Made by a program: the position numbers and the translations under genes. A stretch of 52,895 bases of DNA, from the sequence record PV660453, one strand, 5' to 3'. The notes beneath the pieces are model-generated. The model did no database searches. It was not told where the DNA came from and saw only the letters and a program-made list of their open reading frames with translations. Source of the DNA: Escherichia phage LF82-10. Every line of letters begins with the position of its first letter. Positions within the stretch are counted from its first letter, which is position 1. Below, one piece after another: positions 21,174 through 46,927 of this stretch.

Positions 21174-22232
21174 GTGATGAATCCAACAAGACCTGAATCA
21201 GATTTTTTCTGGTTCACCAGCGATGAAATGCCGAACGATTTTTACCACGACAAAGAGGCATGGACTTTTGATTTCGTATCAGGCTCCAGCCTTTGCGACA
21301 TTCACCAATCGTCACCCGCTTCATGGTTCTTCGCCAAAAACGAGATCACAAAGGCGCTTGAGTTTGGTACTCAGTCACACACCAACTTTGAATCGAAGTC
21401 GCTGTTTGATGCAACGTATCGACGCGCACCAGCCCCGGAAGACTTCGAAAACTTGATTACGTCTCAGGCAGCGCTGGCTACGAAGTTGAAATCATTCGGC
21501 CTGACTGGTACAAGCGGGAAGCAATATCCAGAGCTGATCAAAATGATGGTTGATTGCGGTGAAGATCTTAACGTGTTGTGGCTTATTGATATGATCGCAC
21601 AGTGCCAGGCTTGGGCTGATGGCGTTGAGTTGGTCAAGGCTGAGGATTACGACAAGTGCAAGATGATGCGCGCCGTTCTGGAATCAGTGCCGGAATACGC
21701 AATGATGATGGAAAGCCCAACGGCAATGCACGAGCTTTCATTGTTCGGAAAGATCAGCGGCGTTGACGTAAAAGTCAGACTTGACTACGTTGACACGGTT
21801 ACTGATCCAAACCTCATTCGTCATTTTGGGTACGATCCAGAGCTACACCCTGAAATCATTGTGATTATGGACTACAAAACGACGAGCAGCGCCAACCCGG
21901 CAGATTTTGACCGAAAGGCATTCGATCTTGGGTATTATCTGAAGATGGCATTGCAGCGTGATTTATTCGTCAAAGTGTACGATGAGAAGCGCCCCGTTTG
22001 CTTGGTTCTGCTTACACAGGAAAAGAAAGAGCCATTCTTGCCACTTGGAAGGCCAATGACGCGCGAGCAGCTTCTTTTAGGCCGCAAGCAGTATATGGGT
22101 GTCATTCACACTTACTCGATCTGCAAGGAATCAAACGTTTGGCCTGGCTATGCAAACGGCGCTCCTTTCGTTAGCCTTGAAACGCCTGACTACATCAAGC
22201 GCCAGCATAAGGATATTTTCGGCGGAGAGTAA
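21174..22232 (+). CDS. recombination exonuclease (PD-(D/E)XK, RecE/YqaJ-like)
   Basis: 352 aa; PD-(D/E)XK-like segment IVIMDYKTT; precedes Erf-like and SSB genes. Confidence 0.5.
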   Translation: MMNPTRPESDFFWFTSDEMPNDFYHDKEAWTFDFVSGSSLCDIHQSSPASWFFAKNEITKALEFGTQSHTNFESKSLFDATYRRAPAPEDFENLITSQAALATKLKSFGLTGTSGKQYPELIKMMVDCGEDLNVLWLIDMIAQCQAWADGVELVKAEDYDKCKMMRAVLESVPEYAMMMESPTAMHELSLFGKISGVDVKVRLDYVDTVTDPNLIRHFGYDPELHPEIIVIMDYKTTSSANPADFDRKAFDLGYYLKMALQRDLFVKVYDEKRPVCLVLLTQEKKEPFLPLGRPMTREQLLLGRKQYMGVIHTYSICKESNVWPGYANGAPFVSLETPDYIKRQHKDIFGGE

Positions 22233-22247
22233 TAGCACTAAAAGCTA
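22233..22247 (+). promoter_or_regulatory. TAGCA-box (TAGCACTAAAAGCTA) upstream of Erf-like gene
   Basis: starts 1 nt after exonuclease stop; -10 TATAAT at 22269-22274 within inverted repeat. Confidence 0.55.
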
Positions 22248-22311
22248 AACAAAAGCGGTGATGTTTGGTATAATCACCGCTCAATCAAACGAACGAAAAG
22301 AGGCATAAGCA

Positions 22312-23503: not shown

Positions 23504-23536
23504 AAAAATAAAGGAGCCTTTCGGCTCCTTTTTTAT
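23504..23536. terminator. bidirectional terminator between ssb and tail fibre gene
   Basis: AAAAATAAA-GGAGCC-TTTC-GGCTCC-TTTTTTATTT. Confidence 0.6.
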
Positions 23537-25899
23537 TTCAGCAATAACGACTCAAGTTTAGCAAGGCGCTCTTCCATTTCCTCCATTCTGTTACCCATGT
23601 AAACCATAGCACAGGCCATATCAGTAAGCATGACGTTTGAATCAAGAGCTAGCGTATCGTCCTTAAATCCAGTCTCGATCTGCCTGGCAACGTACTCCTC
23701 ACCATTCTCGTTGACTCCGATAACATCTTCAAAGATCGGAGCGCCAGGGACTACTTTCACATACTGACTATCAACTTTATTCAAGTCCTGAGCAATCAGA
23801 CCGAATCTCTGTGTGTCAGATCCCTTATACTTGAACATGGTTGGGAGCCACTGCATTACGCGATCATAGCTCTCCTTTCCTTCGGTGTATTTGATATCCC
23901 ACTTAAGATCCCGGTCAGACGTTGGCGCTTTCTGGAATGTATACCCCCCATCCCATCCTCCACCCTGACCCCATGAGATAATATCTGATGATGGTGCATG
24001 GAATTCAAATCCGCGATGGTACGCACCATCACCAAGCATCTTAATTACTGCGCGAGGCCATCCGTTGTTCCCGCTAGAAATCATACCAAGAGAGGTATTC
24101 ATTCGATACCCGCCAGTTGATGTGGTTGCCCCTGAGATCAATGAAGCATATCCGGCATCATTACCCGTTACATCACCAGCAAAGAACGTACTCCCCATGT
24201 AATCATTTGGCTGCGCCCAACCTCCTTGAGTTAACTTACCAAGAAACCCCCTTGGAGAAGATATGTGACCGCCGTATGAGTTTATGAATTTAAACTCCTT
24301 CCAGTCACTTCCTTGGTTGTTCACTCCGATCTTGAAGTGATCAATATCAGTGCCACTACCGCGAACCCCCCCAATCTGCCAGTAACCAGAGTACCAGTTA
24401 CCTTGAACCAGGTTAACCCAACTATTAACAGAGCCATCACCAGCAGCGTTTTGAATCAGGATGTTTTTGTTTCCGCCACTCTGAGTTGAAACAACGATCG
24501 ATTTACCCTGCTTTGCCTCTACGTTTCCGTTTGTTGCAACCAGAGCGCCGCCGCTAATCGTTCCGACGGCTGTCAGCGATGCAACTCCGGTAATGTTCCC
24601 CGCCTCATCAAACTGATAGTAGTTCCCCTTTCCTCCAGCCGTGTTTGCCGTGTGAATCGTTGTCTTTACAACGCCGCCTTGTAGTTCATTGTAAAATCTT
24701 GAGTTTGATTGCAGCGTTGCGCCGTCAGCAGAAAGCCTTTTACTCTCAATCAGCCCCCCACTAGTTGCTGAGCCAAGTGTTGTAGCCTCCACGCCTCCAA
24801 ATCTCACCGCTTGACCCGAGCCGATACCAAGATTGTTTCTTGCTCCGTCAGCAGTTGTTGATCCAGTGCCACCAGATCCGATAGGGATCGGGATTACATT
24901 TCCGTTACTATCCTGCCACTGGAAAATCCCATCATCGCCAATCGTCAGCCTTTTTGTTCTATCTGGCGTGCTAATGTAGTTACGCGTTCCAATGTGGCGC
25001 AGCCAGTCAAGATCAAGGTTCGTCCTCGCGGCTTGTACGTCAGTAAGATCAGATAGGTTATTTGCCTTCTTTAGCTGTTCGTCAGGGTTAGCCGTTGCTG
25101 CGCGGTCTGCTTCAGCCTTGGCTCGTGCTGCATCGTCACGAGCGGCGGCGGCAGATTGCCCGGCGCTGGTTTCGCTGTTTGCTGCATTCGTCTCGCTTAC
25201 CCTGGCGGCATCCTTGCTGGCTCCGGCTTGGGTTGCGGCAACTTCGGCGGCTTGACGATGCGCGGCAGCTTCGCCGTTAGATTGAGCGGCTGAGCTTGCG
25301 CTATTACCCGCATTTGTCTCGCTAGTCTTCGCATTGAATGCAGAATCGGCGGCAGCGTTCTTTGCGCTTGTTGCGGTTGCAGCGTCAGCGGCGGAGCTAG
25401 ATGCAGATGCGGCAGCGGCGTTTTTATCTTGCTGTGCAGACTGAGCAGATCCGGCGGCGGCGTTCTTGCTTGCCTCAGCTTCGTTTGCGTTAACTTCAGT
25501 ACGATCAGCATCAACGCGAACGGCAGACTGAAGATCTTTCAGCTCTTGCAGGTTAAAGTTCTTGAAGAAATCCATAGCCTCCTCGATCACAGTTTCCTTG
25601 CTTTGGTAGTAGCGCAGAGTTTCAGCCACATCTTGAGCAAGGCCATCAACAGTGATTGAGTCATGCAGCAGGATTACATAGTTCGTACCATCCGGCACAA
25701 CTGCATCATCCGTTTGGATCGCTCGCATTTCCGTGTCACTCACGATCGCGGAAATAGTAACCAGCGTTAGTGGTTGAGTTAAAAACACCATCGTTGCCCC
25801 AACGCGAATCAGAGACAGCTTGTCTTGCCATTTCGTATCAACGCCAGTTACAACGCCGTTAGCGGCCAATCCCGCCGTTCCTCTACGATAAATCGCCAT
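23533..25899 (-). CDS. tail fibre with C-terminal intramolecular chaperone (S74-like) domain
   Basis: ATG at 25899 (SD AGGTG); Ala/Ser/Asn-rich low-complexity segment; C-terminal region (DRDLKWDIKY...LIAQDLNKV...LAKLESLL) resembles auto-cleaving fibre chaperone domains. Confidence 0.75.
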   Translation of the reverse strand: MAIYRRGTAGLAANGVVTGVDTKWQDKLSLIRVGATMVFLTQPLTLVTISAIVSDTEMRAIQTDDAVVPDGTNYVILLHDSITVDGLAQDVAETLRYYQSKETVIEEAMDFFKNFNLQELKDLQSAVRVDADRTEVNANEAEASKNAAAGSAQSAQQDKNAAAASASSSAADAATATSAKNAAADSAFNAKTSETNAGNSASSAAQSNGEAAAHRQAAEVAATQAGASKDAARVSETNAANSETSAGQSAAAARDDAARAKAEADRAATANPDEQLKKANNLSDLTDVQAARTNLDLDWLRHIGTRNYISTPDRTKRLTIGDDGIFQWQDSNGNVIPIPIGSGGTGSTTADGARNNLGIGSGQAVRFGGVEATTLGSATSGGLIESKRLSADGATLQSNSRFYNELQGGVVKTTIHTANTAGGKGNYYQFDEAGNITGVASLTAVGTISGGALVATNGNVEAKQGKSIVVSTQSGGNKNILIQNAAGDGSVNSWVNLVQGNWYSGYWQIGGVRGSGTDIDHFKIGVNNQGSDWKEFKFINSYGGHISSPRGFLGKLTQGGWAQPNDYMGSTFFAGDVTGNDAGYASLISGATTSTGGYRMNTSLGMISSGNNGWPRAVIKMLGDGAYHRGFEFHAPSSDIISWGQGGGWDGGYTFQKAPTSDRDLKWDIKYTEGKESYDRVMQWLPTMFKYKGSDTQRFGLIAQDLNKVDSQYVKVVPGAPIFEDVIGVNENGEEYVARQIETGFKDDTLALDSNVMLTDMACAMVYMGNRMEEMEERLAKLESLLLK

Positions 25900-25922
25900 T
25901 GTCAACACCTCTTGTTAGTAAA

Positions 25923-25998: not shown

Positions 25999-26934
25999 TT
26001 ACTCCAGTCTGTCAATAAGAGATTGCGGATCGTATAGCCTACGCTGCATCCCCTGGCGGAAATTGTCATTGTTCGGCAAGATTACCCTCAGATCCCGATC
26101 GTCAGCCATGCACAGGGTTTGGTAATCGGTAGACAGGCAAGCAACGCGAAGCTCACGATCTCCTTTGTATCGCCAAGCCACAATTTCAAGGTTCTCGGGC
26201 GTGAAAGTGACCCATACTTCCTGATTGGTTGCCGTCGCTACGCGATGCCCTTCGATTATGTCGCACACCAGATAAATAGAGCCAGTGCCAGCACCAAGCT
26301 TAACAACTGAACCGCGAGAATGATCGCGAGCCATAAAAGAATATTCCCCACTTTCATTAACAAACAGGATATTACACATTTCATCATCCAATCCTTCCGG
26401 TTGAGCGAGATAGCACGGATATGCATGAATAAGCGATTCTCCGCCATTCTCGCGAGGTTTTACGCCTACAATGAATGATTCATCCAATAGGCACTCATAA
26501 ACGCTTAGAGGCGTGCTGGCTCGCAATTCAGTGCGCTCCATAACAGCCATACAGGCATCGTGATCAACTTGCTTGCCAATATTGGCATCGGTTGTTCTCG
26601 CTATGCGCTTGTAAGCCTTCACGCGGTACTCTTGCGGAACCTTGCCCAAGAAGCGCCCCAGGATGTTAACCGCCTCGCTGTATGGCTCACCAGTCAGCTT
26701 CATGACCCAGCCAATGCCTTTATCGTTACCGCATGCGTTACAGATCGCCCCGCCGTCACCCTTCGACTCAAGGTTATCAGTCCAGCGGAAGCGGTCATTG
26801 CCGCCACAGTTTGGGCATGGCTGGTGTTTGCCATTGAATACGGTTGAGGGAAGAGCGCATATTGACTGCAACGCCTCGCGCCATAATCCTTTCATGTATG
26901 GCAAAACTTCCTCTTTCTGGTACATCATCGACAT
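25999..26934 (-). CDS. putative DNA primase
   Basis: 311 aa; N-terminal zinc ribbon CPNCGG-(x19)-CNACG like primase zinc-binding domains; adjacent to helicase module. Confidence 0.5.
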   Translation of the reverse strand: MSMMYQKEEVLPYMKGLWREALQSICALPSTVFNGKHQPCPNCGGNDRFRWTDNLESKGDGGAICNACGNDKGIGWVMKLTGEPYSEAVNILGRFLGKVPQEYRVKAYKRIARTTDANIGKQVDHDACMAVMERTELRASTPLSVYECLLDESFIVGVKPRENGGESLIHAYPCYLAQPEGLDDEMCNILFVNESGEYSFMARDHSRGSVVKLGAGTGSIYLVCDIIEGHRVATATNQEVWVTFTPENLEIVAWRYKGDRELRVACLSTDYQTLCMADDRDLRVILPNNDNFRQGMQRRLYDPQSLIDRLE

Positions 26935-27540: not shown

Positions 27541-29610
27541 ATGAAAATCAAGAGCATCAAGAAGCAGATTGAGGAGTTAGGCGAGGATAAGATCGCAGAG
27601 CTTCAAAAGAAATTCACTTTTGGTGACATTGTTCCTTATGCGTATCAGTGCGTCATGTACGACGAGATCGCAAAGCGCATTTCCGCATACAAACACCCAT
27701 TCTTTGTTAAGGCTTCCGTGTCGGCTGGCAAAACAGTTGGGTTTGCCATGGTGGCGGCGCGGTGCAGGGAAATGACTAGCGCAAAGTTTCCAAAGGGTTT
27801 ATCAATGGCAATCCTCGCTCGCCAGGGTGAGATCGTATCTCAGGATAGCCAGGAGCTAACAAACTTCGGCGTGCCGAATAGCGTTTACTGCGCCGGGCTT
27901 GGTACTAAATCTGCATACTTCCCGATCGTCGTTGGCTCTGAGGGTTCAGTTGCAAACGGGCTTTTCAAGGCTCTCGGAGACTTCGCGCCAATGGTTGTCG
28001 GCATCGACGAATGTCACCAGGTGGATTGGGAAGACCTTGCAGACTCGATCGAGAAGAACGAAAGCTATGAGGAAATGAGCAGACCAAAGGATGAGGCTTA
28101 CATGATCAATGGCGAAGTAGTCGATCGCGGGTTGAAGATATCAAGCCTCATGGAAACCCTGGGAACAGTTGCACCAGGTGCCGGGCGCTCTCAGTACACG
28201 ATAATCATTCGTGAGTTGCAGCGTCGATGCCTGGAAGTTCACGGAAAGGAACTACGCATATTCGGCATGACTGGTTCAGAGTTTCGCGGCACAACTCCGA
28301 TCCTTGTTGAGAATATGAAACTCAAAGGCTTCTGGCGCGAGCAGGTAACGAACATTGATACGAACTACCTCATTGAGTTTGGCTCGGTTGTTCCAACCGT
28401 CTTCGGCTCAACTGGCGGGTTAGGCTACGATCTGGAAGAGTTCAAAGCGTCAAGCGAAGATGGAACAAAAGACTTTGACGCGAAAGTAATGAAGAAGATG
28501 GAGGAGAAGATCCACAAGGATGCTTCCATGACGGCAAGAATTATGGCGGCGGTTGTGGAGGAAGCGAAGAAGCGAAACGGCGTTCTAATTACTTGCTCAG
28601 GGCAACGACACTGTAAAGAGGCGGCTAGTTACCTGCCTGAAGGCTCAACGTATGCGATCATTACTGAGAAGACCGGAACGAAACAGCGCCAGCAAATCCT
28701 TGATGATGCAAACCAGGGAAAGATAAAGTACATCTTCCAGGTTGTGGCATTGACGACTGGCGTTAACGTGCCGTTTTGGGATTTCTCCGTGATACTCCGT
28801 AAGATTGGCTCTCTCACATTGCTGATACAGTTGCTTGGGCGCGGAATGCGACTTTTAAAGGCGTGGCAAATCGCAATGGGGATGGTGAAGACAGATCACC
28901 TTGTTTGGGATTTTGCCGGAACTATGGACGAATTAGGCCAACTTTACTTTGACCCGATTCTTGAGGAAGCTCAGTATCAACGCCGTTTCGACTCGAAGAA
29001 GGAGCCTAAAAAATGCCCTATTTGCGGTCATGAAAACAGTTTCTTTGCTCGTCGCTGTATCAGTCGGGATTTGAACGGAAACAGATGTGAGTATTTCTGG
29101 AAGTCGAGAACGTGCGAGGATCAGGTTGACGATCGAACCGGGAAAGTTATTGTGAAGGGTTGCGGTGTTCAAAATGATGTTGTAGCTCGAATCTGTAGGG
29201 GTTGTGATGCTAGCCTAACAGATCCCAACGCCAACTTAACCGGGAAGGCGTACACAAAAAACGACTGGTGCCAGGTTCTCAGCTTTGAGGTTGGGCTTAC
29301 CAAAAACCAGACCGGGATCATTTATAAATATCGCTTGCGTGATATGCTCGGAGAGGAGTTTAACGCATACGAGAAGTTTTTCCCTGAGTCTCAGGCTCAG
29401 GTATGCCACACGATATGGAAAACAAAAGGCGTGCTTCCACACGTTCACGATTCGAAAGTGGCAAAGCTTATGGCAGCATACAGGAGCGCGCGCCTGATCT
29501 TACAAAACGCGCACCACATCGCGCACCCGGTACGGGTTACGCATCGCAAAAACGCAAAGGGCGAAGATATCATTTCGCGCAAGGACTTCGGTCTTAATGA
29601 GGGCTTATGA
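27541..29610 (+). CDS. ATP-dependent DNA helicase (SF2, DExH)
   Basis: 689 aa; Walker A SVSAGKTVG, DECH box (GIDECHQV); C-terminal Cys-rich zinc-finger-like cluster. Confidence 0.8.
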   Translation: MKIKSIKKQIEELGEDKIAELQKKFTFGDIVPYAYQCVMYDEIAKRISAYKHPFFVKASVSAGKTVGFAMVAARCREMTSAKFPKGLSMAILARQGEIVSQDSQELTNFGVPNSVYCAGLGTKSAYFPIVVGSEGSVANGLFKALGDFAPMVVGIDECHQVDWEDLADSIEKNESYEEMSRPKDEAYMINGEVVDRGLKISSLMETLGTVAPGAGRSQYTIIIRELQRRCLEVHGKELRIFGMTGSEFRGTTPILVENMKLKGFWREQVTNIDTNYLIEFGSVVPTVFGSTGGLGYDLEEFKASSEDGTKDFDAKVMKKMEEKIHKDASMTARIMAAVVEEAKKRNGVLITCSGQRHCKEAASYLPEGSTYAIITEKTGTKQRQQILDDANQGKIKYIFQVVALTTGVNVPFWDFSVILRKIGSLTLLIQLLGRGMRLLKAWQIAMGMVKTDHLVWDFAGTMDELGQLYFDPILEEAQYQRRFDSKKEPKKCPICGHENSFFARRCISRDLNGNRCEYFWKSRTCEDQVDDRTGKVIVKGCGVQNDVVARICRGCDASLTDPNANLTGKAYTKNDWCQVLSFEVGLTKNQTGIIYKYRLRDMLGEEFNAYEKFFPESQAQVCHTIWKTKGVLPHVHDSKVAKLMAAYRSARLILQNAHHIAHPVRVTHRKNAKGEDIISRKDFGLNEGL

Positions 29611-30026
29611 TTACTGACAAGGGCGATTATCTTGAATATTACACCCCTGATAAGGGGTGTACCCTGAAGGAAGAGACTCACCAGGTTAACGGCGTTTCGT
29701 GGCTAAAGTACCACTACCCAAACCTGATGTTTTGGCACACGGTCAACGAGGGGCAGAAGCACATAAACACAGCCCTAAAAGATGAGCAAGCCGGGCTTAA
29801 GAAAGGTGTCAGCGACTTCGTATTTCTGATTGGTCATTTCGATCGGAAATATTGCTTTGGGGCTATTGAGCTGAAGCGCACCAACAAGAGCGGAAAGTAC
29901 AAGGCATCACCAGTCAGTAAGGAGCAGAAAGCTTTCCTTCTCGGTGTGCGTGAACGTGGGGGGTTCGCGGCTGTGGCTTACGGATTCGAGGAGTTGAAGA
30001 AAGCCGTTGAGGACATGATGAAATAG
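29607..30026 (+). CDS. VRR-NUC domain nuclease
   Basis: 139 aa; PD-(D/E)XK-like core (DFVFLIG...GAIELK) consistent with VRR-NUC; overlaps helicase stop. Confidence 0.55.
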   Translation: MITDKGDYLEYYTPDKGCTLKEETHQVNGVSWLKYHYPNLMFWHTVNEGQKHINTALKDEQAGLKKGVSDFVFLIGHFDRKYCFGAIELKRTNKSGKYKASPVSKEQKAFLLGVRERGGFAAVAYGFEELKKAVEDMMK

Positions 30027-30038
30027 CACTATTTGCTA
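30024..30038 (+). promoter_or_regulatory. TAGCA-box (TAGCACTATTTGCTA) upstream of dam
   Basis: TAG is stop of VRR-NUC gene; -10 CATAAT 30061-30066 after hairpin TGCCGG/CCGGCA. Confidence 0.55.
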
Positions 30039-30096
30039 AACCTGTGCCGGAACAATCCGGCATAATGCAACTACACAAACAAACAGGAATGAGATC

Positions 30097-30810
30097 ATGA
30101 TTGACGAGAACGATAAAGACACAATGACGTTTGAAGAAATGGAGCACGGCTTGTATTCAACTCGCGCACTGGTTGCCGGGTGCCACTACCAGCCAGTGAA
30201 GCCGGAAACGTACTATCGCGTTTCAGGGCATCGTTACGTTGGCAGCAAAACGCCTGACGTTGTGCGTGACTTGTGGGCAACCGATCGCGAATTGATTTCG
30301 TGGATGGAAGAGCGTTACGGAAAGTATGATATCGACGCAGCGGCAAGCGCGAATAATGCCGTGTGCGAAAAGTTCTACGACGAGCAACGTAACTGCCTGA
30401 AAATCTGGTGGGGAAAGAATAAGCACATCTGGCTTAACCCTCCGTACTCACATCCTGATCCATTCGTGAAGAAGGCCATTGAGCAGATGGAGCATGACAA
30501 CCAGATTGATATGCTTCTTCCTGGCGACAACTCAACGGCATGGTTTGCAGAGGCGCGCAAAAACGCTGCTGAGATCATCTGGATTGAGGCTGAGATCACA
30601 GAGATTGACCAGCAGGAATATTGCCGAACCGGGCGACTCGCTTTTATTTCCGGCCTAACCGGAAAGCCAGTTGACGGCAACAACAAAGGGAGTGTGATTT
30701 TCATCATGCGCAAACTGAAAGAGGGTGAGACGCAACAAACACACTATGTGAGCGTTTCTGAGATCTGCCCAGGCGTAAGCCGCAAGAAACCACGTAAACG
30801 GAGCGTTTAA
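30097..30810 (+). CDS. dam: DNA N6-adenine methyltransferase (phage Dam-type)
   Basis: 237 aa; catalytic NPPY motif (WLNPPYSHP). Confidence 0.8.
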   Translation: MIDENDKDTMTFEEMEHGLYSTRALVAGCHYQPVKPETYYRVSGHRYVGSKTPDVVRDLWATDRELISWMEERYGKYDIDAAASANNAVCEKFYDEQRNCLKIWWGKNKHIWLNPPYSHPDPFVKKAIEQMEHDNQIDMLLPGDNSTAWFAEARKNAAEIIWIEAEITEIDQQEYCRTGRLAFISGLTGKPVDGNNKGSVIFIMRKLKEGETQQTHYVSVSEICPGVSRKKPRKRSV

Positions 30811-34216: not shown

Positions 34217-34644
34217 AACGCGTAAGCAACTCAATGCTGATCTTCGTAACCATCCTCGTGTTCGTTGCAGTGACTTCGCTATCTGGTTGCTCAACGGCTG
34301 GCGCTCTGACTGGTTTGATCGGCAGCAAGCCGGAAATCTCAGCACAGGCCGGAGCGGAAAACACGAAACAGACGGTTGGCCTAAACAACAAAGTGGATCA
34401 GTCAAGCGAGGTGGAAACCACGATTCGTGATTCAAAGGTTGGAAAGGTTGACAGCTCTAACGGAAAGAAGACCAGCGCATCAAGCATCACGGCTGAAACC
34501 ATCAAGGCCGACAAGATCGAGATTCGCAATAGTGATGGAGAGGCGTTTGGTATTGCGGCTGGTTTCTTCGTCGCTGGTCTGATTGCAGGTTCAAGCGCCG
34601 TTGCATACTTAGCAACGAGACGCAGAAACAACAAAGGAGCCTAA
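34213..34644 (+). CDS. unimolecular spanin (u-spanin)
   Basis: 143 aa; N-terminal lipoprotein signal with lipobox LSGC and C-terminal TM segment ([21 protein letters not shown]) followed by RRRNNKGA; architecture as in T1 gp11. Confidence 0.7.
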
Positions 34645-34660
34645 CGGCTCCTTTTTTATT
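34634..34660. terminator. bidirectional terminator between spanin gene and leftward accessory operon
   Basis: AAAGGAGCC-TAAC-GGCTCC-TTTTTTATT; overlaps both stop codons. Confidence 0.6.
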
Positions 34661-34850
34661 TGTAACGCTTTGCCAGTATCAGAAGTTCACCAGCATCATT
34701 GCACAACGTGTGCTCATCCTTCTTCCCGGCTCGCATCGAACTATTCAGCAGTGACAGCAGGGCGTAATTTAACTCGTCCTCCGTCACCCCTTGAGAGGCG
34801 CAAGCCTCAATAATCGCGTTGATTAGGTTTTGAGCAACCAAAAAGTTCAT
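34656..34850 (-). CDS. hypothetical protein
   Basis: in-frame ATG (MNFLVAQ...) at 34850; 64 aa; last gene of leftward accessory operon. Confidence 0.35.
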   Translation of the reverse strand: MNFLVAQNLINAIIEACASQGVTEDELNYALLSLLNSSMRAGKKDEHTLCNDAGELLILAKRYK

Positions 34851-35169
34851 CGTCGCTGAGCTTGTCAATATTCATCATCTCCCATGTGTAACGATCCTCT
34901 TCACCGCCGTAACAGTTGAAATCAAATTCAAAGGGGCGCTTCTGCGCCCCCTTGCTCCAGTACCAGAGGTTTACGCCGTCAAGGTAGCCCAACCCCATCA
35001 TCCTTGCAACAAACTCCTTAGAAGCGCTTGAGGCGAAGTAACGAGGGGTTACGTTAGCGGCCTTTGCAAGCCGCTCGCACTCGTGATGCTTGAAAATGAA
35101 TTGCGCCAAGTGTTGGCGGTTGAATTTCGTGTAACTCTCACAGAACTTATACAGATCCAGAAGGAACAT
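34807..35169 (-). CDS. hypothetical protein
   Basis: 120 aa; ATG 2 nt after upstream stop. Confidence 0.4.
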   Translation of the reverse strand: MFLLDLYKFCESYTKFNRQHLAQFIFKHHECERLAKAANVTPRYFASSASKEFVARMMGLGYLDGVNLWYWSKGAQKRPFEFDFNCYGGEEDRYTWEMMNIDKLSDDELFGCSKPNQRDY

Positions 35170-35171: not shown

Positions 35172-36758
35172 TTACCCCAGCAAGCGTGGATTAACGTAAA
35201 TCTTATCACCGATCAGGCAAGTGTAATTCTTCTCGTCAAGCATCGGCAGCAAGTGATCTTTGATTCGTGTCATTGTTCCGGCCTGGCCTTCGAATGGTCG
35301 AACCTTGCGCGCGGCCTCGTAAAGCGCCCGAAGACCAACAACGCCCTTCCCCTGCTTTCCGCTCTTGATCAGCAAGTCAATAAGCTTGTTCATTTCTGCT
35401 GAATCGCCAGCGTGCCCGGCAGACGACGCGGAAGAAAGATAGGTCTTGCTCAGCTCGTTAAACATGATCACGGCCTCCTGCATTGTGTCAAGCTCAATCT
35501 CTCGACTCTTCGGCGCATTGCTTCCGTTTGGTGAGAACCAGTTACGGATCACATGCAGAACCGACGCGATACGAATCGCCTGTTTATCGAACTTGCCCAG
35601 CGCACCGCGTAACATGGTGTGCGAGTATTTCCCGCCGTCTGCCAAGTGTGGCTCCATCGCCTGGCGTGCGTTGTTAAGGTACTTCATCGCGCTCTTGCTC
35701 ACCGTGAGCTTAACGTCAACCTCACTCATGATGGCGTGTATCAGCTTGAAGTAATCAGCTTTCAGGCCGCCGTCAATAGGCTCGTAAGTTGACTCGCCAT
35801 TGTCATTCACGAAAACACGCTCACCAAGGAATGACTTCTCACGAACCAGCAAGAAACGCTCAGAAACACCGATACCGCGCGCACCTGCATTCATGATCGC
35901 GTTGATTGTCTCGTCCTGCGCGATAACCGAAATACAACCCATAGCCACGAATGACATGTTGTTATCAGCGTTCGCACGAGCGATAGACACGTTCCCTGCA
36001 TCCCATGCTTTCAGCACAAGCTCGCTGTTTGTCTTCTTCGAACCGTCACCATACGTCATGCCCAACAGGCTGTTAACGGATGTCGCTTCGTCCGAGATCA
36101 CAGCGAAGTTGCCTTGACGGTTGTTAATGCGTGCCAAGCCTTCAGGCGTGGTATCTGAAACAGGGAAAACGATATCGCAAAGGCGCTCAAGCTTCTCTTC
36201 AAGATCCTCTTTCTCCTCAAACAGCGAGGCCATTTCAGATGGCGCTTTCTCCTGTTTCATTTCCTTCGCCAGCGCAGACAGTTTGGCGAGAATCTTTTTA
36301 CGCTCACGCTTACGAGCCTCGTTGAGTCGCTCAGTCTCCGCGATCATTGGCGCGATGGATAGCGAGTTGATTGCGGATTTCCCCGTTGATGGTGGCTGAC
36401 TGGTTACAACGTAGAGCGCAGTTGGTTGTTGCGTTCCGTGATAGTCAACCGTGAACCTACCCAGCATGGCGGCAGACACGCAACCTACAAAGTGCATATA
36501 GGCTGAAGACTCAGGGAATTGAACCGATCTCGCGGCGTTGCGTGAGAGCTTGCCGACCACATCACTATCGTTGCCCAGGGAAATAACAGGATATTTATCA
36601 TTACCTGAATCAATCTCTACCGGAGCCTTCCAGAAGGATTGGGATTGACGATATCCATTCGCATTTATGGCAACGCGGAGCGGCGGCAACCCTTCGGCCT
36701 TTGCAACCTCGATCACTTGTTCCGGCGAAAGTTTATCATCATTGAAAATATCGAACAT
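35172..36758 (-). CDS. large P-loop-like protein of unknown function
   Basis: 528 aa; strong SD AAGGAG; deviant Walker A-like TSQPPSTGKS; own box/-10 promoter (36815-36829 / 36786-36791). Confidence 0.5.
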   Translation of the reverse strand: MFDIFNDDKLSPEQVIEVAKAEGLPPLRVAINANGYRQSQSFWKAPVEIDSGNDKYPVISLGNDSDVVGKLSRNAARSVQFPESSAYMHFVGCVSAAMLGRFTVDYHGTQQPTALYVVTSQPPSTGKSAINSLSIAPMIAETERLNEARKRERKKILAKLSALAKEMKQEKAPSEMASLFEEKEDLEEKLERLCDIVFPVSDTTPEGLARINNRQGNFAVISDEATSVNSLLGMTYGDGSKKTNSELVLKAWDAGNVSIARANADNNMSFVAMGCISVIAQDETINAIMNAGARGIGVSERFLLVREKSFLGERVFVNDNGESTYEPIDGGLKADYFKLIHAIMSEVDVKLTVSKSAMKYLNNARQAMEPHLADGGKYSHTMLRGALGKFDKQAIRIASVLHVIRNWFSPNGSNAPKSREIELDTMQEAVIMFNELSKTYLSSASSAGHAGDSAEMNKLIDLLIKSGKQGKGVVGLRALYEAARKVRPFEGQAGTMTRIKDHLLPMLDEKNYTCLIGDKIYVNPRLLG

Positions 36759-36814
36759 GTTAAAAACTCCTTGTTTGGTTGCTCAATGATAGAGCAACCA
36801 ATGATAGTGCGTTT

Positions 36815-36829
36815 TGGCAAAAAGTGCTA
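36815..36829 (-). promoter_or_regulatory. TAGCA-box (TAGCACTTTTTGCCA) upstream of 528-aa gene
   Basis: -10 TATCAT at 36786-36791 (minus). Confidence 0.5.
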
Positions 36830-36833
36830 TTGG

Positions 36834-37250: not shown

Positions 37251-37307
37251 TTTTAGTTCCTCGTTGTTGGTGTGAATGAATAATAACAAAACCCGCCGAA
37301 GCGGGTT

Positions 37308-37322
37308 TAACAAAAAGTGCTA
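37308..37322 (-). promoter_or_regulatory. TAGCA-box (TAGCACTTTTTGTTA)
   Basis: TAG is stop of 37320..38012; followed by hairpin CCCGCTTCGGCGGG and -10 TATTAT 37280-37285 (minus). Confidence 0.55.
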
Positions 37323-38012
37323 TTTGTAACGGTTGTACTGGAAGACGGCGCGAGCGAATCCGCGCGGAGTTAGGGAGCGGAGTTGCTTAGTCTTCGCAGA
37401 CTTTCCGCCGAGGAACTTCCAGCCCCAAAAGAAATGCAAGCCTTCCTCTTTTGGTAATGGTGCCTTCTCTGGCTCGCGGAAACCGTTGCCATGCCAGATG
37501 CAAGTTTTTTTCGTGTAGCCGTCTCGCAGTGGCATTTTGGGGTGCCAGGAGCCTTCACGCGCATCGACGTATTGCCCGAAGTCACGAGGATGGAAATAGA
37601 ATTTAGGCTTGCCCAGGTTTTCCGGCTTTGACATTGCCCCTACCGGGTTTTCAATCATCCACGGGATCTGGTAGCGTTCGCCAATCTCAATGACAACCTT
37701 TGCACACTCAAGCGCATATTTCATTTCGGCGTCGTCTCTCTCGTGCTGCGCGCCAGATTGGGCAAACAGAGTGCAATCCGGGAAGCCAAAAACGATATCA
37801 GGCTTGGGCAACCCCAGGATCTCAGCCTTTGTGATGAAATCCTTATCAATCCACGTATTCACATATCGGATATTTGGGTGATTCATCTTCACGGCGTACT
37901 CGCCATGATTGCCGGAGTCAGCGTTGAAGCATATCACCTGACAACCAACCTCAGCCCAAGGCAATCCCATAATGCCGGAGCCGTCAAACAGCGACCATAC
38001 AACACGCTTCAT
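37320..38012 (-). CDS. short C5-cytosine methyltransferase-like SAM-dependent protein
   Basis: 230 aa; motif I-like LFDGSGIMG, motif IV-like GFPDC (Pro-Cys region), motif VI-like ENPVG; no room for a normal target-recognition domain; stop TAG embedded in box 37308-37322. Confidence 0.5.
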   Translation of the reverse strand: MKRVVWSLFDGSGIMGLPWAEVGCQVICFNADSGNHGEYAVKMNHPNIRYVNTWIDKDFITKAEILGLPKPDIVFGFPDCTLFAQSGAQHERDDAEMKYALECAKVVIEIGERYQIPWMIENPVGAMSKPENLGKPKFYFHPRDFGQYVDAREGSWHPKMPLRDGYTKKTCIWHGNGFREPEKAPLPKEEGLHFFWGWKFLGGKSAKTKQLRSLTPRGFARAVFQYNRYK

Positions 38013-38933: not shown

Positions 38934-38991
38934 CTTCATTTCCTTGTTTGTTGGTGTAACTGCATTATTGCAGATCACGCCGATTTAGTTT

Positions 38992-39006
38992 TAACAAAAA
39001 GTGCTA
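38992..39006 (-). promoter_or_regulatory. TAGCA-box (TAGCACTTTTTGTTA)
   Basis: TAG is stop of 39004..39351; weak -10 AATAAT at 38964-38969 (minus). Confidence 0.5.
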
Positions 39007-39351
39007 TTTGATGCCGTCAAAGGTTGTGTATTTCAGGTTCACACTGACCTTGCCATCATCGAAATGGAAAGCGGGAGCCTCAAAGCGGATGATGTTATTC
39101 ATCGTTCCGGCCTCTACGTAGCGTCGTGCGCCATTTCTCATGGGGATAACGCTGACTCTCTTTGCCGCATCGAATGGATTTGAAACGCCAAAGTATCGAC
39201 ATACAGCGCCGCGCAACGCCTCATCTTCATGCTTATGCATATCACGGATGAGGCGATTTTTAGCGTCCATCATCACATCATAGCTTGCACAGCTAGAGCC
39301 GATGTTGCTATATTCGCGCATTCCGCCAACCTTGAATTGATTGTTGTTCAT
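39004..39351 (-). CDS. hypothetical protein
   Basis: 115 aa; stop TAG embedded in box 38992-39006. Confidence 0.4.
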   Translation of the reverse strand: MNNNQFKVGGMREYSNIGSSCASYDVMMDAKNRLIRDMHKHEDEALRGAVCRYFGVSNPFDAAKRVSVIPMRNGARRYVEAGTMNNIIRFEAPAFHFDDGKVSVNLKYTTFDGIK

Positions 39352-39807: not shown

Positions 39808-39866
39808 TTGCTTATCTCCGTTTCGTTTTAGTGGTTACATTATGCCGGGTTTCCGCCCGGCACGTT

Positions 39867-39881
39867 TAGCAATTAGTGCTA
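39867..39881 (-). promoter_or_regulatory. TAGCA-box (TAGCACTAATTGCTA)
   Basis: abuts stop of 39882..40088; -10 CATAAT 39839-39844 (minus) after hairpin. Confidence 0.55.
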
Positions 39882-40088
39882 TCAGATTGATTCGATTACC
39901 GCGTGGAAATCTTTGCGGGTTTTGCAGTCTGCCAGGCGTGCATAACATGCTTTAGCGTAGTCAGTATCGGCCTGAGTTTCGAAGATGCCACACTCTTTGG
40001 CGATAGCTTTTAATGTACGCTTTCCGCTTTCGATATCAGCCTTGATGCCGTTGATGGTGTTGATGTCGATGATGTTAAGAGTTGTCAT
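39882..40088 (-). CDS. hypothetical protein
   Basis: 68 aa; downstream of box 40155-40169. Confidence 0.4.
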   Translation of the reverse strand: MTTLNIIDINTINGIKADIESGKRTLKAIAKECGIFETQADTDYAKACYARLADCKTRKDFHAVIESI

Positions 40089-41589: not shown

Positions 41590-41602
41590 TGATTCGATTT
41601 AT

Positions 41603-41664
41603 CCAATTATTCCATTATTCCAACTATTCTGGAATATTCCTGAATAACCGAATATCTGGAATAG
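41603..41664. repeat. cluster of GGAATA/TATTCC motifs including perfect palindrome GGAATATTCC (41631-41640)
   Basis: ATTATTCCA x2, GGAATATTCC, CTGGAATAG in 62 bp; GGAATAATTGGAATAG recurs at 42931-42946. Confidence 0.6.
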
Positions 41665-41709
41665 TCAAAATGACTATGGCTCTCCGTTCGTTTTAGCGAA
41701 CAAACGTTC

Positions 41710-41730
41710 GATGTGATGTGATGTGATGTG
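41710..41730 (+). repeat. (GATGT)4 microsatellite
   Basis: GATGTGATGTGATGTGATGTG. Confidence 0.8.
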
Positions 41731-41899
41731 AATGAGGGTGAGGAGGCGATCAGATCTGATCCCGAAACTTTTTCCCTCACCGCACGATTTGCTAATGAAT
41801 TGTCGTGCCTGTAGTTGTATGTTGTGTTTTACGTTTTCCGTGGAAATCGGTACGCGCTACTACGCGGAATAACAATGTTATGCTTTATATATAGATATA

Positions 41900-41950
41900 T
41901 AAGTATATATAAAATAAAGGTTTTTTATTATATATATTATCTAATTTCAT
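41900..41950 (+). repeat. AT-rich element (TAAGTATATATA...GGTTTTTT...ATCTAAT), copy B
   Basis: homologous to 20839-20880. Confidence 0.6.
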
Positions 41951-42162
41951 AACACTTTATAACGTGTTGTGTTTGTTCCGCCGGACGCGGAGTGATTGAT
42001 ATGTTTCGCGGCCTATTTATGCCTATATTGTGAAATATGGGTAGGGGGATATATACCCCTCCGAAATCCGCAACAAACGCTTAATACGCACTACAACCCA
42101 GCAGGAATGCACCATGTAGAGGAGATTTTGTTGATAATGGCAATAATCGACACAAATTAATC

Positions 42163-42191
42163 TTGACTACAATTAAGCTTTTCCGCATTAT
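42163..42191 (+). promoter_or_regulatory. sigma70-like promoter TTGACT-17-CATTAT for rightward accessory operon
   Basis: hexamers at 42163-42168 and 42186-42191, 33 bp upstream of 42224. Confidence 0.55.
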
Positions 42192-42223
42192 GGCGGCTCA
42201 ACCAATCAGATGAGGTATCACCC

Positions 42224-42721
42224 ATGACACTTGCAGAAGTATTGCGCTATATGGCAACCGAAGCCATGAAATCCCCTGAGAAGGAGATCACCGTGCCAGT
42301 GTGGCAAATCCTGGTTCAGGCACACAATCTGGACGCTGACGAGCGCCGCGCATTACAGGCAGACTTTGACAAGCGCGTTGAGCTGGTAGCAAGTGAGAAG
42401 CGCCTGACCAACTCGTACATCACCAACACCTGCAACCGCATGAAGGAAATGATCGCGGCTGACCTATCCATCACCACAAAGCGTGGCGAGGACGACGGCG
42501 GGAATCGGACGCTCACCCTGGGCGTTAAGCCCGGCGCAATGAAGCTGGGCAGTCGGAGCAAGTCGGAGAACATCGCGGCGAAGAATGCAGTGCAGGATTT
42601 TGCCCGGCGCATCATGGAGATTGCCCCAGCACTAGATAGCCTGAGCGATGATCGCGTTGCTGGTGCCGTCGATGGCGTGCGCATGATGAAAGAGCTGATT
42701 GCCAGGGAGGCCGGACTATGA
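42224..42721 (+). CDS. hypothetical protein (first gene of rightward accessory operon)
   Basis: 165 aa; SD GAGGT; downstream of sigma70-like promoter TTGACT-17-CATTAT (42163-42191). Confidence 0.45.
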   Translation: MTLAEVLRYMATEAMKSPEKEITVPVWQILVQAHNLDADERRALQADFDKRVELVASEKRLTNSYITNTCNRMKEMIAADLSITTKRGEDDGGNRTLTLGVKPGAMKLGSRSKSENIAAKNAVQDFARRIMEIAPALDSLSDDRVAGAVDGVRMMKELIAREAGL

Positions 42722-42930: not shown

Positions 42931-42945
42931 ATGGAATAATTGGAA

Positions 42946-42960
42946 TAGCACGAACTGCTA
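42946..42960 (+). promoter_or_regulatory. TAGCA-box (TAGCACGAACTGCTA)
   Basis: preceded by GGAATA repeats; -10 CATAAT 42983-42988 inside palindrome GGGGCTATGCCATAATAGCCCC. Confidence 0.55.
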
Positions 42961-43019
42961 AAACACCAGATCGGGGCTATGCCATAATAGCCCTACACCA
43001 ACAAAACGAGGTTAGCACA

Positions 43020-43816: not shown

Positions 43817-44095
43817 ATGAAGACGTTAAAAGAGATTTTGGCAGAAATTGACGAGGCTGCGCTCAAGGATAATGACGACGAGGCCACAACAAGCAAGAAG
43901 ATCCTGACTTGCGGAGCCACTCACATTGCGCAAGATGCAGACGGCGCAGTATTCGCATTCAGGGGTAAGCCAACCGCCACGAAAATTGAGGATATGACGG
44001 AGTGGTTTAGCGGCGAAAAAGGTGAAGTGCTGTTATTCTGCGCAGACCTGGAAAAGCCAGAAGATTGGACGCAGTGCATTTGGGAGCTGCCATAA
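43817..44095 (+). CDS. hypothetical protein
   Basis: 92 aa. Confidence 0.4.
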   Translation: MKTLKEILAEIDEAALKDNDDEATTSKKILTCGATHIAQDADGAVFAFRGKPTATKIEDMTEWFSGEKGEVLLFCADLEKPEDWTQCIWELP

Positions 44096-45396: not shown

Positions 45397-45762
45397 ATGA
45401 AAGTTAAATGCATTAGTTCAGACGTTTTGCTTGATGGTTACTACACCCCAGGTAGAGTCTACCGATTAAGGCGAGAAAGGGGCAAAAGCTATAGAACCGT
45501 TAAATCAAACAGAGGCGTTGATCTTGGTGTTATCCACGACCCATTAAAAAGAGGTCGGTTTTTCGTTGCTGGATTTGAACGTTGTGTGTTTGATTCGGCT
45601 CCGCACCGATTCGTGAAGCGCAACCAAAGCGCCGCGCTGGGGCAGATTGAGATCGACTATACGCGATGCAAGCGCAGCATTCGCAATCAGGCTCGCAACA
45701 TCGCAAAAGAGCACTTCTCGTGCGGCAAGCTTGAGAAGATTGCGCGAGGCTATAAGCGATAG
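45397..45762 (+). CDS. hypothetical basic protein (MKVKCI, MKxKC-family)
   Basis: 121 aa from ATG 45397, SD CAGGAG. Confidence 0.45.
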   Translation: MKVKCISSDVLLDGYYTPGRVYRLRRERGKSYRTVKSNRGVDLGVIHDPLKRGRFFVAGFERCVFDSAPHRFVKRNQSAALGQIEIDYTRCKRSIRNQARNIAKEHFSCGKLEKIARGYKR

Positions 45763-45774
45763 CACTTTTTGCTA
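45760..45774 (+). promoter_or_regulatory. TAGCA-box (TAGCACTTTTTGCTA)
   Basis: -10 TATAGT 45797-45802 inside inverted repeat AAGGGCA/TGCCCTT. Confidence 0.55.
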
Positions 45775-45842
45775 AAACTTCCGCAAGGGCATTTGATATA
45801 GTGCCCTTATTGAAGCAGAGCAAACCAATCAGAGGATTCAAC

Positions 45843-46666: not shown

Positions 46667-46855
46667 ATGCAGATCTACAAATCGCCAGGCGGAGCAAGAT
46701 ATGTCGTTGTTGATGGCGTTGTTTACTGCAAGCCAGCAGATGGAAGCATGGTTTACAGGCCGCGCATGACGGTTGAGCGATATCTTGAGCTTATCGCTGG
46801 CGGTCTTCTGACATTCCATTGCGTTATTCGCCCGGTAATGTTCAAAAAGCACTAA
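46667..46855 (+). CDS. hypothetical protein
   Basis: 62 aa. Confidence 0.35.
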   Translation: MQIYKSPGGARYVVVDGVVYCKPADGSMVYRPRMTVERYLELIAGGLLTFHCVIRPVMFKKH

Positions 46856-46861
46856 TTGCTA
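46847..46861 (+). promoter_or_regulatory. TAGCA-box variant (AAGCACTAATTGCTA)
   Basis: -10 TATAGT 46884-46889 inside inverted repeat AAGAGGCA/TGCCTCTT. Confidence 0.5.
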
Positions 46862-46927
46862 AAACTTGCTAAGAGGCATTTGTTATAGTGCCTCTTGTCG
46901 AGTTAACACAAATACAGAGGATTTGAA

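What the first reader, a model, noticed from the sequence alone, without database searches (positions are those of the whole stretch)
35172..36758. 528-aa protein with deviant Walker A-like motif, the largest gene of the accessory region
This is the only large ORF in the leftward accessory operon. It has a strong SD, its own box promoter, and a P-loop-like segment TSQPPSTGKS in which the first conserved Gly is replaced. It is distinct from the annotated primase and helicase. Candidate roles are a second replication initiator or primase-associated NTPase, or an NTPase acting in host takeover.
Basis: inference. Interest (0 to 1): 0.55.

Follow-up and report, generated by a model that had tools for sequence, protein, structure and literature searches.

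The report
T1-like phage DUF3987 replicative helicase
The 528-residue protein is the T1-like phage member of the DUF3987 family of MCM-like AAA+ helicases. It is already labelled "DNA helicase" in GenBank, and its odd-looking ATP-binding loop is the normal signature of that family, so the finding is real but ordinary.

The parts
35172..36758 (-). Coding sequence of the 528-aa DUF3987 protein (orthologue of phage T1 ST9), including the stop codon
   Evidence: ORF list. Pfam PF13148 at 135.6 bits against a cutoff of 27, residues 82-431. PHROG 2373 'DNA helicase', E 6e-250. 100% identical to XUQ13471.1 'DNA helicase' of phage LF82-11.
36459..36758 (-). N-terminal helical region (residues 1-100), function unknown; W43 and P82 are conserved
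   Evidence: AF2 secondary structure and conservation. The region is kept in a DnaG-zinc-ribbon fusion relative, where profile positions 9-520 match residues 360-866 of P0160.
36375..36401 (-). Walker A / P-loop, S120-Q-P-P-S-T-G-K-S128, with Gln121 in place of the first Gly
   Evidence: Follows strand 116-120 and starts helix 125 in the model. Among relatives, Q is present in 254/258, P in 253/258, K in 258/258 and S/T in 258/258.
36180..36350 (-). Long helical hairpin (coiled-coil-like) inserted after the Walker A helix, residues about 137-193
   Evidence: AF2 helices 125-167 and 173-192. The only PDB sequence-profile hits for this stretch are coiled coils, and they are weak. It is present in all 20 aligned homologues with low sequence conservation.
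36087..36107 (-). Walker B strand, F218-A-V-I-S-D-E224
   Evidence: Strand 217-222 in the model. E224 is present in 262/262 relatives and S222 in 253/262; D223 is present in only 167/262, with A or S in the rest.
35949..36053 (-). Low-confidence loop (residues 236-270) carrying the invariant R261; candidate pore or DNA-contact loop
   Evidence: pLDDT 41-57. R261 is present in 266/266 relatives. The assignment to a pre-sensor-1-type loop is inference from its position between helix 243-252 and strand 273-280.
35853..35942 (-). Strand 273-280 with A280-Q281 (candidate sensor 1), followed by G295-x-G297-x-S-E-R301-F (candidate arginine finger)
   Evidence: Q281 259/263, G297 262/262, R301 262/262. 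Strands 273-280 and 302-306 are in the model. The functional labels are inferred, not verified in three dimensions.
35418..35771 (-). Helical lid region (residues 330-447) with the invariant K389 (candidate sensor 2) and H402
   Evidence: AF2 helices 330-344, 355-372, 381-406 and 423-447. K389 264/264 and H402 252/263. The weak hhalign alignment to the MCM lid covers residues 325-439.
35175..35405 (-). C-terminal winged-helix domain (residues 452-528)
36767..36772 (-). Shine-Dalgarno sequence AAGGAG, 8 nt before the ATG
   Evidence: Sequence read. Conserved in 5 of 7 orthologous leaders.
36775..36801 (-). 10-bp hairpin / near-perfect palindrome (GGTTGCTC...GAGCAACC core) with TATCAT in the loop, between the box and the SD
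   Evidence: Inverted repeat I4. RNAfold gives -15.8 kcal/mol, z -6.7 and -4.7. A hairpin sits at the same place, with different stem sequences, in five other T1-like phages.
36813..36830 (-). Copy of the T1-like 21-nt box repeat (aaATAGCACnnnTTGnTAAAA) upstream of the gene
   Evidence: 24 copies in the window against 0-1 in shuffles. The repeat is described in phage TLS with function unknown (PMC11447400). It is present upstream of the orthologue in 6 of 7 phages compared.
34633..34654 (.). Bidirectional terminator-like hairpin between the end of the leftward block and the convergent lysis cassette
   Evidence: Terminator scan found it on both strands. The equivalent site is annotated in T1 at 43966-43988.
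34807..35169 (-). 120-aa gene starting 2 nt after the helicase stop codon (PHROG 2794, unknown function; T1 ST10 position); possible co-translated partner
   Evidence: ORF list and PHROG hit at 9e-61. The same position is occupied in T1, ACG-M12, phSE-2 and others. No function was found.
25999..26934 (-). Phage primase (311 aa, zinc ribbon, no helicase domain); inferred working partner
   Evidence: Pfam Zn_Ribbon_Prim at 1.7e-13. PHROG 510 'DNA primase' matches only positions 9-341 of a 667-position profile. Coordinates.
27541..29610 (+). SF2 helicase (689 aa; T1 ST22), followed by a VRR-NUC nuclease at 29607..30026; the third member of the conserved trio
   Evidence: Pfam ResIII plus Helicase_C, and VRR_NUC. 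PHROG 16, with a weak hit to a branch-migration helicase. It is contiguous with DUF3987 and primase genes in L003 and L005.

Best explanation
The gene encodes the T1-like phage member of the DUF3987 family, an AAA+ ATPase of the MCM-like (superfamily 6) type. It has an N-terminal helical region, an ATPase core with a Gln-containing P-loop, a helical lid and a C-terminal winged helix. The most likely role is the phage's own ring-shaped replication-fork helicase. It would bind and hydrolyse ATP at subunit interfaces, using Walker A Lys127/Ser128, Walker B Glu224 and a trans-acting arginine (candidate Arg301). It would translocate on single-stranded DNA through a central pore (candidate contact Arg261). 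It would work with the separately encoded zinc-ribbon primase (25999..26934) while the host polymerase copies the DNA. By analogy with the one characterised family member, and given relatives fused to the DnaB N-terminal primase-docking domain, it probably moves 5'-3' on the lagging strand. The winged helix may help it find or load at the origin. What is shown here: family membership, motif conservation, the MCM-like fold, and the link to primases by fusion and by gene neighbourhood. What is inferred: oligomeric state, polarity, the residue roles beyond Walker A and B, the partnership with this phage's primase, and essentiality.
Against: No experiment exists for any T1-like orthologue. In the window the gene is about 8.2 kb from the primase (36758 to 26934) and sits in a different, leftward block among small unknown genes, not in a replication cluster. 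My own profile-profile comparison with a three-sequence archaeal MCM profile was not significant (E 0.17 and 0.056) and aligned only the P-loop in register. The MCM link therefore rests here on structure and on the literature. The protein lacks an MCM-type N-terminal OB domain. The loop where a pre-sensor-1 hairpin would lie is modelled with low confidence. MCMs move 3'-5' whereas AgaPH moves 5'-3', so polarity cannot be read from the fold. I could not retrieve the old T1 data on dependence on host DnaB, so a role for the host helicase at the fork is not excluded.
Confidence: 0.75

Rival explanations
1. It is mainly an origin-recognising initiator or loader, like Orc1/Cdc6 (an AAA+ module plus a C-terminal winged helix). 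It would melt or mark the phage origin and recruit the host DnaB or the phage SF2 helicase, and would not itself be the processive fork helicase.
Against: The ORC/Cdc6 hits are much weaker than the MCM hits and mostly cover only the winged helix (about 80-100 aligned residues against about 250 for MCM). Relatives replace the helicase domain in primase-helicase fusions and carry the DnaB N-terminal domain. AgaPH is a true helicase. No iterons or repeats lie in or next to the gene. An initiator-helicase that does both jobs is compatible with the best explanation and is not a real rival to it.
Confidence: 0.12
2. It is an accessory helicase for recombination-dependent replication, fork restart or concatemer processing, while host DnaB (or the SF2 helicase) drives the main fork.
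For: The gene is separated from the primase in T1-like genomes and lies in a block of small accessory-looking genes. The phage carries a full recombination set: exonuclease VIII, Erf, SSB, VRR-NUC. In L003 and L005 the gene neighbours recombination genes as well as the primase.
Against: Fusion to primases and to the DnaB N-terminal domain is a recurring trait of the family and points to primosome function. The SF2 plus VRR-NUC pair is the better fit for junction processing. The gene is a core gene, conserved across 899 near-full-length phage matches.
Confidence: 0.1
3. It is an NTPase used for host takeover or counter-defence, unrelated to phage DNA replication.
Against: It has no match to defence-system models (PADLOC). 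Family, fold, fusions and neighbourhoods all point to replication.
Confidence: 0.02

Closest known systems
Phage T1 ST9 and the Drexlerviridae 'DNA helicase' orthologues (PHROG 2373), e.g. Pantoea phage AAS23 gp49
   Same: They are direct orthologues at 57-100% identity. They have the same length and the same genomic position, convergent with the lysis cassette. Most also have the same upstream box repeat. They are already annotated as putative DUF3987 helicases.
   Different: Nothing of substance. T1 has an HNH endonuclease gene inserted directly upstream. No member of this group has been studied experimentally.
AgaPH, the PriCT-DUF3987 helicase associated with a pAgo-linked primase-polymerase (PMC11724360)
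   Same: It belongs to the same Pfam family (DUF3987) and has the same conserved Walker A and B motifs. A relative with the same PriCT_2-DUF3987 architecture (P0234) aligns with the window protein across the ATPase core and shows EQPSGTGKS, SSE, ERF and an invariant Lys. It is the only family member with demonstrated activity: 5'-3' unwinding, ATP/dATP dependence and primase binding.
   Different: AgaPH has an N-terminal PriCT domain and partners with an AEP primase-polymerase on an integrated element of a Bacteroidota genome. The window protein has a different N-terminal helical region and presumably partners with a DnaG/P4-type zinc-ribbon primase encoded about 8 kb away. I could not obtain the AgaPH sequence for a direct comparison.
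MCM helicases (archaeal MCM, eukaryotic MCM2-7, MCM8/9); superfamily 6, AAA+
   Different: There is no Pfam MCM hit and no significant profile match in my hands. The protein has no N-terminal OB-fold/zinc domain. It has a long helical hairpin inserted after the Walker A helix. Gln replaces the first P-loop Gly, which MCM keeps. Its likely polarity (5'-3' in AgaPH) is opposite to that of MCM (3'-5').
SCCmec Cch (PDB 5dgk 'active helicase'); a DUF927 helicase of a Staphylococcus aureus mobile genomic island is described in the literature (PMC5862659)
   Different: It is a different Pfam family with a much lower structural score than true MCMs. It lacks the Gln P-loop signature, as far as I know from memory; I did not test this.
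DnaB/T7 gp4/P4 alpha primase-helicase systems
   Same: The inferred job is the same: a hexameric fork helicase coupled to a zinc-ribbon/toprim primase. One relative carries the DnaB N-terminal domain in front of a DUF3987 core (P0187). The window's primase matches the N-terminal half of a primase-helicase PHROG profile.
   Different: The motor is AAA+ (MCM-like), not RecA-type SF4 or D5/P4-type SF3. Helicase and primase are separate genes in different transcription blocks.

Membership tests
Pfam DUF3987 (PF13148) | Score above the curated gathering threshold over most of the model | tested here: met
   135.6 bits against a cutoff of 27, E 3.2e-39, model positions 3-349 of 364. All 120 listed homologues carry PF13148.
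Pfam DUF3987 (PF13148) | Family P-loop signature Q-P-x-x-x-[GAS]-K-[ST] and an invariant Walker B glutamate | tested here: met
   The window has S-Q-P-P-S-T-G-K-S and V-I-S-D-E. Across relatives, Q is 254/258, K 258/258 and E224 262/262, including primase-fused members.
PHROG 2373 'DNA helicase' (Drexlerviridae-type orthologue group) | Full-length profile match | tested here: met
   E 6.3e-250, residues 5-528 on profile positions 3-515 of 515.
AAA+ ATPases, MCM-like / superfamily 6 helicases | AAA+ core fold most similar to MCM-clade members | tested here: met
AAA+ ATPases, MCM-like / superfamily 6 helicases | Sequence-profile similarity to the MCM family | tested here: inconclusive
   No Pfam MCM hit at E<=1. 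hhalign against a three-sequence archaeal MCM profile gave E 0.17 and 0.056, with only the P-loop reliably in register; my MCM profile was thin. The literature reports 98% HHsearch probability for another DUF3987 protein.
AAA+ ATPases, MCM-like / superfamily 6 helicases | Trans-acting arginine finger, sensor 1 and sensor 2 residues | tested here: inconclusive
   Invariant candidates exist at the expected places in the secondary-structure order: Q281 after strand 273-280, R301 before strand 302-306, and K389 in the lid. I could not inspect coordinates or an oligomer, so the assignments are inferred.
AAA+ ATPases, MCM-like / superfamily 6 helicases | Pore loops (pre-sensor-1 beta hairpin, helix-2 insert) | tested here: inconclusive
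   The segment 236-270, between helix 243-252 and strand 273-280, carries the invariant R261 but is modelled at pLDDT 41-57. No helix-2 insert is evident. Instead a helical hairpin follows the Walker A helix.
AAA+ ATPases, MCM-like / superfamily 6 helicases | C-terminal winged-helix domain | tested here: met
MCM family proper (Pfam PF00493 with the MCM N-terminal domain) | N-terminal OB-fold/zinc-binding domain preceding the ATPase | tested here: not met
   Residues 1-100 are helical with a short hairpin. No OB-fold is predicted and no Pfam MCM_N or MCM_OB hit was found. The protein is therefore MCM-like, not an MCM.
Replicative hexameric helicase (functional class) | Ring hexamer, ATP-driven unwinding of forked DNA, defined polarity | not testable with these tools
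   Only one chain could be modelled. Activity is known only for AgaPH.
Replicative hexameric helicase (functional class) | Genetic or physical association with a primase | tested here: met
   Fusions occur to Zn_ribbon_DnaG, PriCT_2, the BT4734-like AEP domain and the DnaB N-terminal domain. The gene is adjacent to primase genes in L003 and L005. In the window itself the primase is about 8.2 kb away.
DnaB-type SF4 helicases | RecA-type core with the DnaB_C domain | tested here: not met
Anti-phage defence ATPases | Match to a known defence-system model | tested here: not met
   No PADLOC family at E<=0.01.

The most novel reading that the evidence does not exclude
The most novel reading still open is that the T1-like DUF3987 protein is a self-sufficient initiator-helicase. 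On this reading an MCM-fold AAA+ ring finds the phage origin through its C-terminal winged helix and loads itself without a dedicated loader. It then runs 5'-3' on the lagging strand like DnaB, docking a separately encoded bacterial-type primase. That would be an MCM-like motor doing a DnaB-like job with the opposite polarity to MCM. The family-wide Gln-for-Gly P-loop and the dispensable Walker B aspartate would reflect a distinct nucleotide-binding geometry. This would fill the gap left by the missing initiator and loader in Drexlerviridae.
Probability: 0.2. Interest if true: 0.45.

Novelty: already known. Interest (0 to 1): 0.15.

Why it matters
As a discovery it matters little. The gene belongs to a recognised family, carries a helicase label in public records, and fits a published prediction for how small phages without their own polymerase replicate. 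It has some value as a pointer. T1-like phages are very common in phage-therapy collections (921 records carry this gene). Their replication has not been worked out biochemically, and some of the T1-like literature still names only the primase and the SF2 enzyme as the replication genes. If this protein is the real fork helicase, it is the natural target for studying how these phages recruit the host polymerase. It is also a tractable bacterial-virus model for an MCM-fold motor that may run with DnaB-like polarity.

Tried and rejected
1. NCBIfam and PDB sequence searches with the protein, and a PDB search with the family profile, gave nothing significant. No DUF3987 structure seems to be in the PDB.
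2. I compared the family profile with MCM. I fished three genuine archaeal MCM AAA+ sequences out of the PDB, aligned them and ran hhalign against both the 20-sequence and the 295-row family alignments. The results were not significant, so my hand mapping of SERF to the MCM SRFD motif and of K389 to the MCM sensor-2 arginine is unconfirmed. I report these only as candidates.
3. Model coordinates are not exposed, so residue positions could not be checked in three dimensions.
4. I looked for an origin (iterons) inside or beside the gene and found none.
5. The defence-system scan found no hit.
6. Literature searches for T1 host-gene requirements (dnaB, dnaG), for T1 genes 1 and 2, and for escape or essentiality data on this gene found nothing usable. 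No supplementary tables are held for the Kazlauskas survey.
7. The simple sigma-70 scan does not single out a promoter for the gene.
8. RNAalifold on an automatic alignment of the leaders gave a weak consensus because the stems were out of register. Folding each leader on its own was the informative test.
9. I considered SF3 (D5/P4 alpha-like) because of the PPxxGKS-style P-loop. I rejected it because no SF3 helicase appears among the top structural hits.

Full report
**Observation.** The window is essentially the genome of Escherichia phage LF82-11 (PV660454): 100% identity over the 4 kb tested. It is a T1-like siphovirus with the Drexlerviridae gene layout. Coordinates match the record up to at least 9.8 kb and are shifted by 84 bp from about 26 kb onward. 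The ORF at 35172..36758 on the minus strand is 528 aa and is the largest gene of the leftward block. AAGGAG lies 8 nt before its ATG. A copy of the genome-wide box repeat lies at 36813-36830. The peptide TSQPPSTGKS occupies residues 119-128. All the descriptive parts of the finding are therefore correct.

**Family assignment.** The protein matches Pfam DUF3987 at 135.6 bits against a cutoff of 27, and PHROG 2373 'DNA helicase' end to end at E 6e-250. The deposited record calls it 'DNA helicase'. The T1 orthologue is ST9, in the same position: convergent with the lysis cassette and followed by the same small gene. A tblastn search finds it in 921 phage records, 899 of them near full length, mostly Klebsiella and Escherichia T1-like phages. 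The deep profile search finds 5,902 cluster representatives at E<=1e-3.

**The 'deviant' Walker A.**
- In 20 homologues spanning 35-100% identity, Q121, P122, P123, G126 and K127 are invariant.
- In the wider set the motif is Q-P-[PSA]-[SGA]-x-[GAS]-K-[ST], with Q in 254/258 and K in 258/258. This includes relatives fused to primase domains.
- The Walker B glutamate (E224) is present in 262/262, but the aspartate before it in only 167/262.
- R261, G297, R301 and K389 are invariant.

The Gln is therefore a family hallmark and is compatible with activity. The one characterised DUF3987 protein, AgaPH, loses helicase activity when its Walker A or Walker B is mutated, and its authors describe the family's Walker A as 'GxxxxGKT/S, with some variation'.

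**Fold.**
- The AlphaFold model built from the 20-sequence alignment has pLDDT 83.6 and pTM 0.82. Low confidence is confined to residues 1-5 and 236-270.
- The C-terminal 75 residues hit winged-helix domains, including the MCM C-terminal one. Foldseek agrees.
- Against viral models the best matches are other DUF3987 proteins, many fused to primases or primase-polymerases.
- This reproduces the published classification of phage DUF3987 proteins as superfamily 6, MCM-related helicases with a C-terminal wHTH (PMC4889955).
- My own sequence-profile comparison with a small archaeal MCM profile was not significant and aligned only the P-loop in register. Here the MCM link rests on structure.
- The protein is MCM-like but not an MCM. 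It has no N-terminal OB domain. A long helical hairpin follows the Walker A helix. The first P-loop glycine that MCM keeps is Gln here.

**Association with priming.**
- Longer relatives carry, in front of the DUF3987 core, a DnaG-type CHC2 zinc ribbon, PriCT-2, a BT4734-like AEP domain, or the DnaB N-terminal domain, which is the part of DnaB that docks primase.
- In two phage contigs whose homologues are only 36-37% identical, the gene order is DUF3987, then zinc-ribbon primase, then SF2 helicase, then exonuclease, with ERF and SSB following in one of them.
- The window encodes the same trio, but the DUF3987 gene has been moved about 8.2 kb from the primase (25999..26934) and the SF2 helicase (27541..29610).
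- The window's primase matches only the N-terminal half of a primase-helicase profile, so it lacks a motor of its own.
- The SF2 enzyme is followed by a VRR-NUC nuclease and weakly resembles branch-migration helicases. That suits junction or fork processing better than fork unwinding; this is inference.
- No other helicase-type P-loop ORF is present. No polymerase, initiator or loader is annotated, as others have noted for Drexlerviridae.

**Mechanism.** I commit to the following, at about 0.75 confidence. The protein is the phage's hexameric fork helicase. It binds ATP at subunit interfaces (K127/S128, E224, candidate trans-arginine R301, candidate sensors Q281 and K389). It threads ssDNA through a pore lined by the loop carrying R261. 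It couples to the separately encoded primase while host Pol III synthesises DNA. AgaPH and the DnaB-N fusion suggest 5'-3' polarity. The winged helix may contribute to origin loading.
- Shown here: family membership, motif conservation, the fold, and the link to primases.
- Inferred: oligomer, polarity, residue roles other than the Walker motifs, the partner, and essentiality.
- Rivals: a pure initiator/loader (0.12), an accessory recombination or restart helicase (0.10), and a host-takeover NTPase (0.02).

**Novelty.** The finding is already known at the level of annotation and published prediction. Nothing here would surprise a specialist. There are three small additions:
- the family-wide statistics for the Gln P-loop and the variable Walker B aspartate;
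- the demonstration that the DUF3987-primase-SF2 trio is contiguous in related phages and split in T1-likes;
- the remark that some of the T1-like literature still names only the primase and the SF2 enzyme as replication genes.

**Side observation.** The 'box' is the 21-nt repeat aaATAGCACnnnTTGnTAAAA described in phage TLS, whose function is listed there as an open question.
- In this window 24 copies occur.
- 18 of them are followed within 42 nt by a stable hairpin whose stem sequence differs at every copy. Its loop or 3' arm carries a TATNAT-like hexamer.
- Upstream of the helicase gene, the box and the hairpin are kept in six of seven T1-like phages, with different stems each time.
- Structure conserved while sequence varies suggests a nucleic-acid-level element: a promoter with an unusual architecture, a terminator/antiterminator, or a processing site. 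I did not resolve which.

Noticed in passing
window, 24 sites, e.g. 22232-22249(+), 30023-30040(+), 36813-36830(-), 37306-37323(-), 38990-39007(-), 39865-39882(-), 42945-42962(+), 45759-45776(+), 46846-46863(+), 50902-50919(+): The known T1-like 21-nt box repeat (aaATAGCACnnnTTGnTAAAA) has 24 copies here. At 18 of them a stable hairpin follows within 42 nt (RNAfold z < -1.5; mean MFE -11.7 against -6.6 kcal/mol for random 42-mers). The stem sequence is different at each copy, and the loop or 3' arm holds a TATNAT-like hexamer. A conserved ACACCAAACAA-like tract then precedes the SD. One stem (47629 copy) needs G-U pairs, which hints at an RNA-level structure. The repeat is published with unknown function (PMC11447400). 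I did not see the covarying hairpin mentioned in the passages I read.
   Followed up: partly
window 36775-36801(-); loci L006-L009 and L011 at about positions 340-390: The leader of the helicase gene forms a 9-11 bp hairpin at the same position in six T1-like phages from different genera. The stems differ (GGTTGCTC, GGTGCG, GCGGGT, GGTGCGG, GTTGCCG, GGCGGTG), and TATCAT, TAACAT, TATAAT or TATTAT lies in or at the loop (z from -1.9 to -5.5). Klebsiella phage K62PH164C2 lacks the box at this site.
   Followed up: partly
window 41600-42300: This is the roughly 700-bp non-coding, AT-rich region (GC 0.43) between the divergent leftward and rightward early blocks. It holds TATTCCA/TGGAATA repeats forming an imperfect 31-nt palindrome (41608-41663), a GATGT x4.4 array (41710-41731) and a (TA)13 tract with nested palindromes (41886-41940). 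It is a candidate replication origin or control region. No origin is defined for T1-like phages in the papers I read.
   Followed up: no
window 27541-30026(+): An SF2 helicase (ResIII plus Helicase_C, 689 aa) overlaps by 4 nt with a VRR-NUC nuclease (139 aa). The same pairing of the SF2 helicase with a roughly 138-aa gene recurs next to DUF3987 and the primase in a distant phage contig (L003). It is probably a fork- or junction-processing pair. The T1-like literature treats this SF2 enzyme as 'the' replication helicase.
   Followed up: partly
family alignment, window residue D223 = nt 36090-36092: In the DUF3987 family the Walker B aspartate is replaced by Ala or Ser in about a third of members (D 167, A 58, S 31 of 262), while the following Glu is invariant. 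This is unusual for a P-loop NTPase and may go together with the Gln P-loop.
   Followed up: no
window 37320-38012(-) and 30097-30810(+): The window has two DNA methyltransferase genes. One is a Dam-like enzyme in the rightward block. The other is a short 230-aa protein two genes upstream of the helicase, with only a weak, sub-threshold match to the C-5 cytosine methylase family (E 0.0017, 18.3 bits against a cutoff of 22).
   Followed up: no
window 34929-34954(-), inside ORF 34807..35169: A strong terminator-like hairpin (11 pairs, 8 G-C, then a T-rich tail) lies inside the 120-aa gene immediately downstream of the helicase gene. It is near the start of the overlapping 64-70-aa ORF.
   Followed up: no
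window about 23533-25908(-) compared with PV660454 23533-25983: The window is 84 bp shorter than the LF82-11 record. Coordinates agree up to at least 9.8 kb and are offset by 84 from about 26 kb onward. The difference probably lies in or just upstream of the tail-fibre gene, whose ORF is 791 aa here against an annotated 816 aa.
   Followed up: no
BFVD and homologue lists: Several deposited T1-like genomes have this gene split or truncated: Salmonella phage 36 'Helicase' at 335 aa, Vibrio phage Vc1 'Helicase' at 345 aa plus a 529-aa protein labelled 'DNA primase' that is 62% identical to part of it, and Shigella phage 2019SD1 at 451 aa. These are most likely assembly or annotation errors and not biology.
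   Followed up: no
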